Assembly: GCF_030013595.1 (NCBI RefSeq)
Contig: NZ_CP122768.1
DNA: 64,000 nt
Strand: one strand, 5' to 3'
DNA from: Escherichia coli
GTDB lineage: Bacteria; Pseudomonadota; Gammaproteobacteria; Enterobacterales; Enterobacteriaceae
Below the pieces are notes generated by a model, which saw only the letters and a list, made by a program, of their open reading frames with translations, was not told where the DNA came from and searched no databases. Below are positions 2,933 to 60,120 of the stretch, piece by piece. Position numbers and translations under genes: made by a program. Position 1 is the first letter of the stretch. The number at the start of each line of letters is the position of its first letter.

Positions 2933-3433
2933 ATGATCAATGCACTGGGATTGCTGGAAGTGGACGGCATGGTCGCCGCGATAGATGCAGCTGATGCCAT
3001 GCTCAAAGCAGCTAACGTTCGTCTGCTCAGTCACGAAGTGCTTGACCCTGGTCGCCTAACGCTGGTGGTGGAAGGCGATCTGGCGGCGTGTCGTGCGGCG
3101 CTGGACGCAGGTTGTGCTGCCGCGATGCGTACCGGGCGTGTCATCAGCCGTAAGGAGATCGGTCGGCCAGACGATGACACCCAGTGGCTGGTTACTGGCT
3201 TTAACCGCCAGCCGAAGCAACCCGTAAAGGAACCCGACGCGCCAGTTATCGTCGCGGAATCTGCTGACGAGTTGTTGGCGCTGTTAACATCAGTACGTCA
3301 GGGAATGACGGCAGGAGAAGTGGCTGCCCACTTTGGCTGGCCGCTGGAAAAAGCCAGAAATGCGCTCGAACAGCTCTTTTCTGCCGGGACGTTACGTAAA
3401 CGCAGTAGTCGTTACCGTCTCAAGCCCCATTAA
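2933..3433 (+). CDS. eutK: bacterial microcompartment shell protein EutK
   Basis: 166 aa from ATG 2933 (track ORF starts at an upstream TTG); BMC domain LGLLEVDGMVAAIDAADAMLKAANV; RBS GGAGG upstream. Confidence 0.9.
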   Translation: MINALGLLEVDGMVAAIDAADAMLKAANVRLLSHEVLDPGRLTLVVEGDLAACRAALDAGCAAAMRTGRVISRKEIGRPDDDTQWLVTGFNRQPKQPVKEPDAPVIVAESADELLALLTSVRQGMTAGEVAAHFGWPLEKARNALEQLFSAGTLRKRSSRYRLKPH

Positions 3434-4536: not shown

Positions 4537-5439
<903 letters not shown>

Positions 5440-57469: not shown

Positions 57470-58708
57470 ATGGCTGACACTCGCCCTGAACGTCGCTTTA
57501 CGCGCATTGATCGTCTCCCGCCCTACGTTTTTAATATTACCGCTGAACTGAAAATGGCTGCGCGTCGGCGCGGCGAAGATATTATCGATTTCAGTATGGG
57601 TAACCCGGACGGTGCGACTCCGCCGCATATCGTCGAAAAATTATGTACGGTGGCCCAGCGCCCGGACACGCATGGTTACTCCACGTCACGCGGCATTCCG
57701 CGGCTACGTCGCGCCATTTCCCGCTGGTATCAGGATCGCTACGACGTCGAGATCGACCCGGAATCAGAAGCCATCGTCACCATTGGTTCGAAAGAGGGAC
57801 TGGCGCATCTGATGCTGGCGACGCTGGATCATGGTGACACTGTACTAGTGCCTAATCCAAGCTACCCGATTCATATTTACGGCGCGGTGATTGCCGGGGC
57901 GCAGGTACGCTCAGTGCCGCTGGTGGAAGGTGTCGATTTCTTCAACGAACTGGAACGCGCCATTCGCGAAAGTTATCCGAAACCGAAGATGATGATCCTC
58001 GGCTTCCCGTCGAACCCAACCGCGCAATGCGTGGAACTGGAATTCTTTGAGAAGGTTGTGGCGCTGGCAAAACGCTACGATGTGCTGGTGGTCCATGACC
58101 TGGCCTATGCCGATATCGTCTACGATGGCTGGAAAGCGCCGTCAATCATGCAGGTGCCGGGCGCACGCGACGTGGCGGTCGAGTTCTTTACCCTGTCGAA
58201 AAGTTACAACATGGCGGGCTGGCGTATCGGCTTTATGGTTGGCAACAAAACGCTGGTCAGCGCGTTGGCACGTATTAAAAGCTATCACGATTACGGCACC
58301 TTTACGCCGTTGCAGGTGGCAGCGATTGCGGCGCTGGAGGGCGATCAACAGTGCGTGCGCGACATTGCTGAACAGTACAAACGCCGCCGTGATGTACTGG
58401 TAAAAGGGCTGCATGAAGCGGGCTGGATGGTCGAAATGCCGAAGGCTTCGATGTATGTCTGGGCGAAAATCCCGGAACCGTATGCTGCCATGGGCTCGCT
58501 GGAATTTGCCAAGAAGCTGCTGAACGAAGCGAAGGTCTGTGTCTCTCCGGGGATTGGCTTTGGCGACTACGGCGACACGCATGTTCGCTTTGCACTGATT
58601 GAAAACCGCGACCGTATTCGTCAGGCGATTCGTGGGATTAAAGCGATGTTCCGTGCCGATGGTTTACTACCCGCCAGCAGCAAACATATTCACGAAAACG
58701 CGGAATAA
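57470..58708 (+). CDS. alaC: glutamate-pyruvate aminotransferase
   Basis: 412-aa ORF; fold-type I aminotransferase with PLP-lysine in [14 protein letters not shown]. Confidence 0.9.
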
Positions 58709-58726
58709 ACACCGACCTCAAAAATG

Positions 58727-58756
58727 CAAACAGGAGCCTGATGGCTCCTGTTTTTC
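58727..58756 (+). terminator. intrinsic terminator after alaC
   Basis: CAGGAGCC-TGAT-GGCTCCTG hairpin followed by TTTTTCATT. Confidence 0.7.
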
Positions 58757-58772
58757 ATTGCACAGTTTGCTT

Positions 58773-58844
58773 TTAGATCATCAGGGCAAAAGTACCGGCC
58801 CAAACGATGACCATAAAAGAAATGCCCATAAAGAAATATTTCAC
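58773..58844 (-). CDS. ypdK: 23-aa small membrane protein YpdK
   Basis: GTG 58842-58844 with GGAGAG RBS upstream; translation MKYFFMGISFMVIVWAGTFALMI; stop TAA 58773-58775; below the 60-aa track cut-off. Confidence 0.65.
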   Translation of the reverse strand: MKYFFMGISFMVIVWAGTFALMI

Positions 58845-59129
58845 TTTACATCTCTCCGCGTAATTACTGTTACGCCTGAATGACTTCATTACACCTGATA
58901 CAGTGAGTTGACACCGGGCAAAACGACCTTAAAAGTCCTGTATTTTACCGTGGGCATCACCCCAGAATTCTGAGCTAAACTGCTCCAGACGGCGCTAATG
59001 TACGCCTAAAACTGAAACGAGACAAGAGGCATTTTCTTATTTACTTTTAGTAACTTACAGGTGTCTCATATCGGCGACAGTTTAATTTCTGACGGTAATA
59101 ATTAGAGATTCAGCGAAGGAAAAAACCTT

Positions 59130-59167
59130 AAGAAAAAAGCCATAAAAACCATGAGGTTATTATGGCT
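59130..59167 (-). terminator. intrinsic terminator after lpxP
   Basis: 8-bp stem AGCCATAA (59138-59145) / TTATGGCT (59158-59165), followed on the minus strand by a U-run (plus-strand A-run 59132-59137). Confidence 0.55.
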
Positions 59168-59199
59168 GATTTGAGGAGGGAAAGAGTAAGAGCAGTTTG

Positions 59200-60120
59200 T
59201 TAAATGTATAGCGACGATTCTCCCACCGGGCGCGTTTTAAAGCGACGGTGGATCCAGAGGTACTGCTCCGGTGCGCGCATGATCTCTTTTTCGATAATCT
59301 TGTTCATATAGGCAGCGGCTTGATTTTCATCTGCCGGGTAGCCTTCCATCTCTGGGGTGATGTACAAACGATATCCGCTGTAATCCGCTTTTCTTACCAT
59401 CGTTACGGTTAACATGGCTGCGCCAGAGAGACGTGAAAGGACATACGTACCATTGGTTGTGGCGACATTTTCCACCGCAAAGAACGGCGCGAAGGAGCTG
59501 CCTTTACGACCATAATCCTGATCGGGAGCAAACCATACCGCTTCACCTTTCTTCAGTGCACCAACAATGCCGCGCAGATTATTTCTGCCGATCATCGCTT
59601 TGTTAGAGCGCATGCGCCCACGGGTCTGCACCCATTCCATCAGCTGATTATTATGTGGACGATAGGTAGCCATCATTGGTTGACACAGTCCCATCACGCG
59701 GCCGCCCAGTTCCAGCGACATAAAATGGACGCCGACAACCATTACGCCGCGATTTTGCATTTGTGCGTGTTTAAGGTTATCCAGCCCTTCAACATCAAAC
59801 CATTTGCGTACGCGACTGTCGGGCCAGAACCACGCCATGCCGGTTTCTACCAGCGCCATGCCGAGTGAACGAAAGTTTTCGGCGATCATCTTCTCGCGCT
59901 CTTCAGCAGAATGCTGCGGGAAACAAAGTTCCAGGTTTTTACGGGCGATAGATTCACGCCGTTTCAGGAATGGTCGCGCCATTGCGCCAATACGCGTGCC
60001 GAGAAAGCAGAGAACAGGATAAGGAAGCTGTACCCAAAGCCAGAGTACACCAAGCCCAAACCATGTGAGCCAGTAGCGAGGATGCAGAAACTCGCGGGAA
60101 AATTTGCATTTTGGAAACAT
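59200..60120 (-). CDS. lpxP: lipid A palmitoleoyl-ACP acyltransferase (cold-induced)
   Basis: 306 aa from ATG 60118-60120 (MFPKCKFSREFLHPRYWLTWFGLGVLWLW...); LpxL/LpxP late acyltransferase family. Confidence 0.9.
   Translation of the reverse strand: MFPKCKFSREFLHPRYWLTWFGLGVLWLWVQLPYPVLCFLGTRIGAMARPFLKRRESIARKNLELCFPQHSAEEREKMIAENFRSLGMALVETGMAWFWPDSRVRKWFDVEGLDNLKHAQMQNRGVMVVGVHFMSLELGGRVMGLCQPMMATYRPHNNQLMEWVQTRGRMRSNKAMIGRNNLRGIVGALKKGEAVWFAPDQDYGRKGSSFAPFFAVENVATTNGTYVLSRLSGAAMLTVTMVRKADYSGYRLYITPEMEGYPADENQAAAYMNKIIEKEIMRAPEQYLWIHRRFKTRPVGESSLYI

What the first reader, a model, noticed from the sequence alone, without database searches (positions are those of the whole stretch)
58773..58844. 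23-aa membrane mini-protein (ypdK) hidden in the alaC-lpxP spacer
A GTG-start ORF with a GGAGAG RBS encodes MKYFFMGISFMVIVWAGTFALMI, a single hydrophobic helix, on the minus strand between the alaC terminator and lpxP. It matches the small protein YpdK as I recall it. It shows that the 490-bp spacer is not empty and that sub-60-aa genes are invisible in the supplied ORF track.
Basis: partly seen in the sequence, partly recalled or inferred. Interest (0 to 1): 0.25.

Follow-up and report, generated by a model that had tools for sequence, protein, structure and literature searches.

The report
Known small membrane protein gene ypdK
The 23-codon gene is real: it is ypdK, an already annotated tiny membrane protein of unknown function, kept next to alaC across enteric bacteria and preceded by a conserved promoter and a folded RNA leader that appear undescribed.

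Summary
Window 58773..58844 (-) is a GTG..TAA ORF of 23 codons with a GGAGAG Shine-Dalgarno sequence 7 nt upstream. RefSeq annotates exactly these coordinates as ypdK, "membrane protein YpdK". The peptide scores 57.5 bits against the NCBIfam YpdK equivalog (cutoff 30).

The ORF alone is no more than chance (58 ORFs of at least 20 aa lie in 3.5 kb). Comparison across species shows it is a protein-coding gene:
- It sits tail-to-tail with alaC in 75 of 79 informative Enterobacterales loci.
- Variation by codon position is 0.58/0.19/1.13 bits, and dN/dS is about 0.2.
- G7, S9, G17 and T18 are invariant yet use all four synonymous codons.

So this is a known gene of unknown function.

New side results:
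- The start codon is GTG in 77 of 77 sequences.
- The conserved neighbour is alaC, not lpxP.
- A conserved sigma-70-like promoter lies about 150 nt upstream.
- It would drive a leader of about 146 nt. Helices P2 and P5 show covariation, and hairpin P1 forms in all 37 sequences with varied stems. The leader matches no Rfam family.

I infer that YpdK is a low-abundance single-pass inner-membrane protein that packs against a larger membrane protein.

The parts
58773..58844 (-). ypdK coding sequence: GTG start, 23 codons, TAA stop. Product: MKYFFMGISFMVIVWAGTFALMI.
   Evidence: sequence; RefSeq CDS, WP_010723117.1; NCBIfam NF033437.1, 57.5 bits; conserved across 75 other species, dN/dS about 0.2.
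58852..58857 (-). Shine-Dalgarno sequence GGAGAG, 7 nt before the GTG. The spacer holds an out-of-frame ATG-TAA (58851..58846) in E. coli.
   Evidence: A GGAG core 7-10 nt upstream of the GTG is present in nearly all of the 77 sequences (GGAC in L075).
58858..58875 (-). Leader hairpin P5 (GGCGUA-N6-UACGCC type) directly abutting the SD.
   Evidence: RNAalifold. 91% of cells are paired and 4 of 6 pairs change on both sides. It forms in individual folds with z below -1 in 34 of 37 sequences.
58905..58963 (-). Leader helix P2 (58953..58963 paired with 58905..58915), enclosing the variable hairpin P3 (58916..58952).
   Evidence: RNAalifold. 94% of cells are paired and 4 pairs change on both sides. 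Many G-U pairs make it specific to the sense strand. The P2-containing fold equals the unconstrained MFE, or lies within 0.5 kcal/mol of it, in 30 of 37 sequences. P3 has z below -1 in 27 of 37.
58969..58989 (-). Leader hairpin P1, next to the predicted 5' end. It is followed by the invariant GAATTC (58965..58970) inside the near-palindrome CTCAGAATTCTGGG (58961..58974).
   Evidence: A hairpin forms at this position in 37 of 37 sequences (mean z -2.9) with at least 7 different stem sequences. Invariant columns are listed. The palindrome is not supported as an RNA hairpin.
58997..59060 (-). Predicted ypdK promoter: A/T-rich UP-like block 59031..59060, -35 TTGTCT 59020..59025, 17-nt spacer, -10 TACATT 58997..59002, discriminator AGCGCC. 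Predicted +1 is near 58990.
   Evidence: Conserved in 71 of 76 loci: -10 TACATT 54, TAAATT 11, TAGATT 5, TATATT 1. The -35 at 17 nt is TTGnnn in most. The consensus scan missed it because it matches only 8 of 12 positions. The TSS is inferred, not mapped.
58725..58753 (-). Intrinsic terminator shared tail-to-tail with alaC (stem 58728..58753). The ypdK mRNA 3' end is at about 58725.
   Evidence: Terminator scan. Term-seq 'primary' 3' end for ypdK at K-12 2497040(+) in PMC7815308 supplementary file 1, mapped onto the window. The stem covaries between genera.
57470..58708 (+). alaC (alanine transaminase), the convergent neighbour. It is the only conserved neighbour of ypdK.
59200..60120 (-). lpxP, the upstream neighbour on the same strand. 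It has its own terminator, with a 3' end at about 59133.
   Evidence: Term-seq 3' end at K-12 2496632(+). lpxP lies next to ypdK only in Escherichia, Salmonella, Citrobacter, Enterobacter and Lelliottia.

Best explanation
This is ypdK (b4680 in K-12), a genuine and already annotated gene for a 23-residue protein made almost entirely of one hydrophobic helix.

Shown here:
- The reading frame is under purifying selection as a protein across Enterobacteriaceae, Erwiniaceae and Serratia.
- The motif M-K-Y-x-x-M-G-x-S-x5-W-x-G-T-F-x-L-M is conserved.
- The start codon is always GTG, behind a GGAG-type SD.
- The gene is always placed tail-to-tail with alaC and shares one hairpin terminator with it.

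Inferred:
- It is transcribed on its own from a conserved sigma-70-type promoter about 150 nt upstream.
- The RNA would be about 266 nt: a folded leader of about 146 nt (hairpin P1, long-range helix P2 around variable hairpin P3, an unpaired conserved linker, hairpin P5 touching the SD), the 72-nt ORF, and a 48-nt tail.
- The weak start codon keeps the protein scarce. Published translation efficiency is 0.03-0.23.
- The protein inserts in the inner membrane with the N terminus inside, because K/R2 is the only conserved charge.
- It acts by packing its invariant small and polar residues (G7, S9, G17, T18, with Y3, W15, F19) against a larger, equally conserved membrane protein. This is how AcrZ, MgtS, MgrB, CydX and KdpF work.

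Identity is near certain. I put the partner-binding mechanism at roughly 50%. The partner is unknown.
For: Identity:
- RefSeq CDS at the same coordinates.
- NCBIfam equivalog at 57.5 bits against a cutoff of 30.
- Present in 5422 of 5426 E. coli genomes, and the 72 nt are 100% identical in 4771 of 5423 records.
- Identical to K-12 b4680.

Protein-coding selection:
- An intact homologue follows alaC in 75 of 80 loci from other species.
- Entropy by codon position is 0.58/0.19/1.13 bits. Y3, M6, G7, S9, G17, T18 and F19 are invariant, and all four synonymous codons are used at G7, S9, G17 and T18.
- pN/pS is 0.28 and dN/dS is about 0.2.
- GTG start in 77 of 77 sequences, and a GGAG core in nearly all.

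Expression:
- Ribosome footprints of 1.6-14 RPKM, mRNA of 17-175 RPKM and TE of 0.03-0.23; the mRNA rises at pH 5.8 (log2FC 1.55, padj 0.003) without more footprints (PMC10746267 Tables S3 and S8).
- Mapped 3' end at the shared terminator (PMC7815308).
- A transcript overlapping ypdK responds to UV, and ypdK is cited there as one of the 18 small membrane proteins of Hemm et al. 2008 (PMC3009722).

Own promoter and leader.

Hydrophobicity.
Against: - Nothing here tests membrane insertion, topology, a binding partner or a phenotype.
- There is no Pfam family, and no solved structure contains the peptide.
- No functional paper turned up among the 14 that mention ypdK.
- Gene neighbourhood gives no clue to a partner, because the upstream neighbour changes between genera and AlaC is a cytosolic enzyme.
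- The gene was lost by deletion in Erwinia endophytica, and is absent in Lonsdalea and Symbiopectobacterium. It is therefore dispensable in some lineages.
- The TSS is predicted from conservation only.
Confidence: 0.9

Rival explanations
1. The ORF is a chance open frame in a non-coding spacer, and the annotation is carried along by homology only.
For: ORFs of this size are frequent: 58 of at least 20 aa in 3.5 kb. There is no Pfam family. Translation efficiency is low.
Against: Variation has a three-base periodicity. Invariant residues are encoded by all four synonymous codons. dN/dS is about 0.2 across three bacterial families. The SD and start codon are conserved. Ribosome footprints are published.
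Confidence: 0.01
2. The real product is the longer 38-residue protein that starts at the in-frame ATG at 58889 (MKSFRRNSNYAERCKV-KYFF...).
For: the ORF listing reports this ATG ORF at 58773..58889. ATG is the commoner start codon.
Against: An in-frame start at that position (15 codons upstream) exists only in the E. coli sequences (window, L001, L002). Most other species have no in-frame upstream start, and where one occurs its position differs. No SD precedes that ATG. The extension lies inside the leader region, where the alignment has indels that are not multiples of three. RefSeq and NCBIfam use the GTG.
Confidence: 0.03
3. YpdK is a type I toxin-like membrane-damaging peptide, kept silent by its long folded leader and weak start codon.
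For: It is a tiny hydrophobic peptide with a long structured 5' UTR and low translation efficiency. Its transcript responds to UV, as do those of the SOS toxins TisB and DinQ (the comparison is from my own knowledge).
Against: It is a single copy, vertically inherited at one locus, with invariant polar and small residues and dN/dS of about 0.2. I found no antisense RNA over ypdK: the annotated Tpke70 lies over lpxP. The upstream CTGT-N8 sequence is followed by AAAA, not ACAG, so it is not a full LexA box. The covariation-supported fold leaves the SD unpaired. There are no copies in phages and essentially none on true plasmids.
Confidence: 0.04
4. The roughly 266-nt ypdK transcript works mainly as a regulatory RNA (a dual-function RNA like SgrS/SgrT or AzuCR/AzuC). 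The conserved unpaired leader segments would base-pair with other mRNAs.
For: The leader blocks GAATTCUGAG and UCUAUAMUCAG are as conserved as the coding sequence, and the second lies in a stretch with no predicted structure. The transcript has sRNA-like size and an intrinsic terminator. mRNA and footprints are uncoupled at pH 5.8.
Against: No target is known. The mapped 3' end leaves a short, interrupted U tail (UUUGCA), which is unlike typical Hfq-binding sRNAs (the comparison is from my own knowledge). The leader is shortened to about 40-75 nt in some species that keep the ORF. RIL-seq supplementary tables were not available.
Confidence: 0.08

Closest known systems
YpdK of E. coli K-12 (b4680; RefSeq WP_010723117.1; NCBIfam NF033437.1; reported among the 18 small membrane proteins of Hemm et al. 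2008, as cited in PMC3009722)
   Same: The peptide, nucleotide sequence, start codon, SD and genomic position are identical.
   Different: Nothing differs; this is that gene. The strain is not K-12: the flanks are 95-99% identical to most E. coli genomes (5123 of 5423 records) and 100% to strain 746 and others.
Small single-pass inner-membrane modulators of E. coli (AcrZ-AcrB, MgtS-MgtA, MgrB-PhoQ, CydX-CydAB, KdpF-KdpABC, PmrR-LpxT)
   Same: One transmembrane helix, fewer than 50 residues, conserved small and polar residues within the helix, low abundance. mgrB also starts with GTG (table seen).
   Different: No partner is known for YpdK. It is not in an operon with a candidate partner. It is shorter (23 aa) and has no soluble tail. 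This is a 'works like' inference from my own knowledge of those systems, not a tested membership.
Type I toxin peptides (IbsC, ShoB, TisB, DinQ)
   Same: A very short hydrophobic peptide, a long structured leader and poor translation.
   Different: No cognate antisense RNA was found, there is a single vertically inherited copy, purifying selection on specific residues is strong, and the SD is not sequestered in the supported fold.
Structured 5' UTRs that stabilise or tune mRNAs (e.g. the ompA leader)
   Same: A hairpin close to the 5' end plus a hairpin next to an exposed SD. No premature 3' ends were seen in the leader.
   Different: No sequence or Rfam relationship. A stabilising role is not tested.

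Membership tests
YpdK (NCBIfam NF033437.1, equivalog) | Score at or above the curated cutoff over the full 23-position profile | tested here: met
   57.5 bits against a cutoff of 30, residues 1-23 on profile positions 1-23, E = 9.4e-16.
YpdK (NCBIfam NF033437.1, equivalog) | Same locus as the annotated ypdK gene of E. coli | tested here: met
   RefSeq CDS ypdK (WP_010723117.1) at locus 3174..3245, which is window 58773..58844, between alaC and lpxP. The nucleotide sequence is identical to K-12 b4680.
YpdK (NCBIfam NF033437.1, equivalog) | The frame is conserved as a protein in related species | tested here: met
   75 of 80 loci hold an intact homologue. Entropy by codon position is 0.58/0.19/1.13 bits, and dN/dS is about 0.2.
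YpdK (NCBIfam NF033437.1, equivalog) | The protein is made in the cell | not testable with these tools
   Literature only: ribosome footprints of 1.6-14 RPKM in PMC10746267 Table S3. The primary tagging papers (Hemm 2008, 2010) were not available.
YpdK (NCBIfam NF033437.1, equivalog) | Membrane localisation | not testable with these tools
   Hydropathy only: mean Kyte-Doolittle value of 2.15 over residues 4-23, and one charged residue.
Small membrane-protein modulators (AcrZ/MgtS/MgrB type) | Direct binding to, and modulation of, a larger membrane protein | not testable with these tools
   No partner can be read from the gene neighbourhood. No PDB chain matches. The peptide is too short for the structure and homology tools.
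Type I toxin-antitoxin | A cis- or nearby-encoded antisense RNA overlapping the toxin mRNA | tested here: not met
   No Rfam sRNA in 58500..59400. The only annotated sRNA nearby, Tpke70, maps to 59136..~59571 (+), over lpxP. The absence of an unannotated antisense transcript was not tested.
Type I toxin-antitoxin | SD or start codon sequestered by a conserved leader structure | tested here: not met
   The SD-sequestering helix of the E. coli MFE fold has no covariation, and two of its pairs are mostly broken. The anti-SD alternative costs about 9 kcal/mol.
Conserved structured cis-regulatory leader RNA | Base pairs maintained by compensatory changes on the sense strand | tested here: met
   Covariation score 0.241 against 0.154 in shuffles (0 of 500 reach it) and at most 0.088 when partners are slid. 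P2 and P5 each have 4 pairs changed on both sides. P1 forms in 37 of 37 sequences with varied stems.
Conserved structured cis-regulatory leader RNA | The region is transcribed as part of the mRNA (mapped 5' end) | not testable with these tools
   The promoter is inferred from conservation. The held Cappable-seq supplementary files had no entry for the three coordinate prefixes searched (2496760-2496789). The dRNA-seq paper was not held.
Conserved structured cis-regulatory leader RNA | A regulatory effect on expression | not tested
   Only indirect evidence: mRNA and footprints are uncoupled at pH 5.8.

The most novel reading that the evidence does not exclude
ypdK is expressed through an undescribed, ancient regulatory unit. 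A sigma-70 promoter is conserved from Escherichia to Pantoea and Serratia. It is followed by a leader of about 146 nt with covariation-supported helices (P2/P3 and P5, plus hairpin P1) and invariant unpaired blocks (GAAUUC, UCUAUAMUCAG) that match no Rfam family. This would be a new cis-regulatory RNA, or a dual-function RNA, that sets the amount of a 23-residue membrane protein together with an obligatory GTG start.
Probability: 0.35. Interest if true: 0.45.

Novelty: already known. Interest (0 to 1): 0.2.

Why it matters
As reported, the finding re-discovers an annotated gene. Its value is as a positive control: a reader working from raw sequence can spot a real 23-codon gene.

YpdK itself still has no known function. 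These results give concrete handles for finding one:
- It is far more widely conserved than E. coli.
- It has a sharp residue motif.
- It never uses ATG.
- It is tied to alaC rather than lpxP.
- It carries a conserved promoter and folded leader.

Tried and rejected
The representative search and the structure prediction need at least 30 aa. I therefore anchored the cross-species survey on AlaC.
2. The primary papers (Hemm 2008, Hemm 2010, Fontaine 2011, Thomason 2015, Weaver 2019 in PMC) are not held. What I say about them rests on citing papers or on my own memory, and is marked as such.
3. TSS evidence: the held Cappable-seq supplementary files had no entry for coordinates 2496760-2496789, the three prefixes searched. 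RIL-seq tables are not held.
4. The SD-sequestering hairpin in the E. coli MFE fold is rejected. It has no covariation, and pairs 156-175 and 161-170 are broken in most sequences.
5. The palindrome CTCAGAATTCTGAG as an RNA hairpin is no better than shuffles.
6. A switch in which the 3' arm of P2 acts as an anti-SD is not supported. It is pairable in 90.7% of cells, but nothing covaries, and it is on average 9 kcal/mol worse than the P2 fold.
7. Tpke70 as the ypdK leader or as an antisense RNA is rejected. It maps over lpxP.
8. A proximal TATAAT promoter about 55 nt upstream is unlikely. It is perfect in Salmonella and Citrobacter but reads TGTATC in E. coli, has no -35, and the covarying helices lie upstream of it.
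9. LexA, sigma-E and sigma-32 readings of the promoter, checked by eye, do not fit in spacing or half-sites.
10. A mobile-element origin is rejected. There are no phage hits, and the 14 'plasmid' records are mostly chromosome-sized or chromosome-derived.

Full report
**1. Observation**

On the minus strand, window 58844..58773 reads GTG AAA TAT TTC ... ATG ATC TAA, which translates to V(M)KYFFMGISFMVIVWAGTFALMI*. GGAGAG occupies 58857..58852, and seven bases (ATGTAAA) separate it from the GTG.

The ORF lies between a strong hairpin (58753..58728, 11 pairs, followed by a T run) and lpxP. The stop codon of convergent alaC ends at 58708 and the lpxP stop begins at 59200, so the spacer is 491 bp.

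A 23-codon ORF is not remarkable in itself. The same 3.5 kb holds 58 ORFs of at least 20 aa, so the case must rest on other evidence.

**2. Identity**

- A 701-bp query around the ORF matches 5422 of 5426 complete E. coli genomes. The feature under the match is 'ypdK: membrane protein YpdK'.
- In NZ_CP023353.1 the CDS (WP_010723117.1) lies at locus 3174..3245, which corresponds exactly to window 58773..58844.
- The peptide scores 57.5 bits against NCBIfam NF033437.1 (YpdK, equivalog, cutoff 30) over the whole 23-position profile.
- There is no Pfam family, no Rfam family in 58500..59400, and no PDB chain.
- The ORF and its 15 upstream bases are identical to K-12 b4680 (NC_000913.3:2496921-2496992) as printed in PMC10746267 Table S3.
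- PMC3009722 cites ypdK as one of the 18 small membrane proteins reported by Hemm et al. 2008.

**3. Is it really a protein-coding gene?**

The protein tools refuse a 23-mer. I therefore used AlaC as an anchor and fetched 80 loci from other species. Of these 80 loci:
- 75 have a YpdK-like ORF tail-to-tail with alaC.
- One (E. albertii) ends before the site.
- One (Erwinia endophytica) keeps only the promoter fused to the last ten codons.
- Three (Lonsdalea, Symbiopectobacterium, Pseudomonas resinovorans) lack it.

The homologues span Enterobacteriaceae, Erwiniaceae (Pantoea, Erwinia, Mixta) and Serratia.

Among 69 distinct nucleotide sequences:
- Column entropy is 0.58, 0.19 and 1.13 bits at codon positions 1, 2 and 3.
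- Y3, M6, G7, S9, G17, T18 and F19 never change.
- G7, S9, G17 and T18 are each written with all four synonymous codons.
- Nei-Gojobori pN/pS is 0.28, and dN/dS is about 0.2 for unsaturated pairs.

This is the signature of selection on the peptide. The motif is M-K-Y-x-x-M-G-x-S-x5-W-x-G-T-F-x-L-M. The middle of the helix (positions 10-14) is only required to be hydrophobic.

**4. Start codon**

All 77 sequences start with GTG (two Pantoea-group sequences read GTG AGA TAC), and nearly all have a GGAG core 7-10 nt upstream. The in-frame ATG at 58889, which would give 38 residues, exists only in E. coli and has no SD, so GTG is the start.

GTG never becomes ATG over a divergence that nearly saturates synonymous sites. 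This suggests selection for weak initiation, though that is an inference.

It fits published data for K-12. Ribosome footprints are 1.6-14 RPKM on 17-175 RPKM of mRNA, giving a translation efficiency of 0.03-0.23. The mRNA rises at pH 5.8 (log2FC 1.55, padj 0.003) without more footprints (PMC10746267 Tables S3 and S8).

**5. Neighbourhood**

lpxP lies upstream of ypdK only in Escherichia, Salmonella, Citrobacter, Enterobacter and Lelliottia. Elsewhere the upstream gene varies in both identity and strand. The constant partner is alaC, through one shared hairpin whose stem covaries between genera.

Term-seq data place the ypdK 'primary' 3' end at K-12 2497040, which is window about 58725. They place the lpxP 3' end at 2496632, window about 59133 (PMC7815308). 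No further 3' ends are listed in between. ypdK is thus a separate unit downstream of the lpxP terminator.

**6. Promoter (inferred)**

Alignments of the upstream DNA show a block more conserved than most of the spacer. In the window it consists of:
- an A/T-rich stretch at 59060..59031;
- a -35 element TTGTCT at 59025..59020;
- a 17-nt spacer;
- a -10 element TACATT at 59002..58997;
- the discriminator AGCGCC.

A TA[C/A/G/T]ATT hexamer in this setting is present in 71 of 76 loci (TACATT 54, TAAATT 11, TAGATT 5, TATATT 1). The hexamer 17 nt upstream is TTGnnn in most. The consensus scan missed it because it matches only 8 of 12 positions.

With +1 near 58990 the leader is about 146 nt (median 145, range 36-183) and the whole RNA is about 266 nt. 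I could not find a mapped TSS.

**7. Leader structure**

For 37 Enterobacteriaceae leaders (alignment A1), RNAalifold predicts two helices:
- a long-range helix P2 (window 58963..58953 with 58915..58905);
- a hairpin P5 (58875..58858) that ends at the SD.

On the named structure the covariation score is 0.241, against 0.154 in column shuffles (0 of 500 reach it) and at most 0.088 when partners are slid. P2 is paired in 94% of cells and P5 in 91%. Each has four pairs that change on both sides. The many G-U pairs in P2 would be A-C mismatches on the other strand, so the structure belongs to the ypdK sense strand.

Folding each sequence separately:
- The segment just after the predicted +1 forms a hairpin (P1) in 37 of 37 sequences (mean z -2.9) with at least seven unrelated stem sequences.
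- The insert inside P2 forms a hairpin (P3) with z below -1 in 27 of 37.
- The linker between P2 and P5 is unstructured (mean z 0.16) although its sequence, UCUAUA(A/C)UCAG, is conserved.

The fold that contains P2 equals the unconstrained minimum-energy fold, or lies within 0.5 kcal/mol of it, in 30 of 37 sequences. Erwiniaceae leaders have their own 5' hairpin and a longer SD-adjacent hairpin, both with covariation.

No Rfam family matches the leader in E. coli or in six other genera.

**8. What the leader does not seem to do**

- The SD-masking hairpin of the E. coli MFE fold is not conserved.
- The near-palindrome around the invariant GAATTC is not supported as an RNA hairpin.
- An anti-SD role for the 3' arm of P2 is compatible with the sequences (90.7% pairable) but shows no covariation and is on average 9 kcal/mol less stable than P2.
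- Term-seq shows no premature 3' ends.

The supported fold leaves the SD free. I therefore favour a role in mRNA stability, or as a platform for an unknown factor, over a simple on/off switch. This is open.

**9. Mechanism of the protein (inferred)**

The peptide is one hydrophobic helix. A conserved K or R sits at position 2, and most species have no other charge, although some add a C-terminal E or K. By the positive-inside rule this predicts an N-in orientation.

The conserved residues cluster in the two outer thirds of the helix and are small, polar or aromatic. That pattern is expected for specific helix-helix packing rather than for a generic membrane anchor.

By analogy with AcrZ, MgtS, MgrB, CydX and KdpF (my own knowledge), the most likely role is as an accessory or modulator of a larger, conserved inner-membrane protein. 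I put this at about 50%. The neighbourhood offers no candidate partner.

A type I toxin reading is unlikely. The gene is a single, vertically inherited copy under strong purifying selection, no antisense RNA was found, and the SD is exposed.

**10. Other features in the spacer**

The annotated sRNA Tpke70 (sequence from the PMC6172242 supplement) maps to the plus strand at 59136..~59571. It is antisense to the lpxP terminator and the 3' end of lpxP, and it is not part of the ypdK unit.

**11. Verdict**

The gene is already known, so interest in the finding as stated is low.

The by-products are modest but concrete new leads on a protein that still lacks a function:
- family-wide conservation;
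- the obligatory GTG start;
- linkage to alaC;
- a conserved promoter and a structured leader absent from Rfam.

Noticed in passing
window 58845..59060 (-): A conserved sigma-70-like promoter (-35 59020..59025, -10 58997..59002, UP-like block 59031..59060) and a leader of about 146 nt lie in front of ypdK. Helices P2/P3 and P5 are supported by covariation, and hairpin P1 forms in all 37 sequences. No Rfam family matches.
   Followed up: yes
window 58842..58844 (-), and 76 other sequences (L001 plus 75 loci of L002-L081): The ypdK start codon is GTG in 77 of 77 sequences from three bacterial families and never ATG or TTG. The second codon is AAA in 67 of 69 distinct sequences and never AAG.
   Followed up: partly
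window 58846..58851 (-): In E. coli an out-of-frame ATG-TAA start-stop sits in the SD-to-GTG spacer. The GATG is nearly invariant in Enterobacteriaceae. In other genera it reads ATG-AAA-CGT... with no immediate stop, and lies only 2 nt from the SD. This is unexplained.
   Followed up: partly
window 58961..58974 (-): An invariant GAATTC sits inside the near-palindrome CTCAGAATTCTGGG, between P1 and P2. It is not supported as an RNA hairpin. A second AATTCTC sits in the P3 loop of most genera but not in E. coli. It may be a protein or sRNA site.
   Followed up: partly
window 59001..59010 and 58871..58880 (-): Direct repeat tttAGGCGTA / ttcAGGCGTA, once across the -10 region and once as the 5' arm of hairpin P5. 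It is conserved at both places in Enterobacteriaceae.
   Followed up: no
window 59136..~59571 (+): The annotated but uncharacterised sRNA Tpke70 (436 nt) maps here. It is antisense to the lpxP terminator and the last ~370 nt of lpxP. It starts 3 nt from the mapped lpxP 3' end (59133).
   Followed up: partly
L067 about 5380..5430 (Erwinia endophytica): The -10 element of the ypdK promoter (GTAAATT) is fused directly to the last ten codons (..WVGVFYLML*). This is a natural deletion of roughly 190 bp that removed the leader and the 5' half of the gene.
   Followed up: yes
L075, L056, L076 compared with L072, L078: Leader length varies widely while the ORF is kept. The distance from the -10 motif to the GTG is 49 nt in Erwinia persicina, 74 nt in Klebsiella sp. 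BIGb0407, 93 nt in Erwinia oleae and 193-196 nt in Serratia.
   Followed up: partly
window 58728..58753: One hairpin serves as terminator for both convergent genes, alaC (+) and ypdK (-). This tail-to-tail arrangement is the only conserved linkage of ypdK (75 of 79 informative loci).
   Followed up: yes
H27, NZ_CP008805.1 3281173..3281243 (E. coli O157:H7 SS17): The 72-nt ORF aligns over only 71 nt of this record, which suggests a 1-nt indel. This is either a frameshift or an assembly error. It is still annotated as ypdK.
   Followed up: no
PMC6667211 (literature): A 102.6-kb Stx2a prophage in STEC O26:H11 strain CFSAN027350 is reported as inserted in the 'mlaA-ypdK intergenic region'. Some strains therefore have large insertions near this locus.
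   Followed up: no
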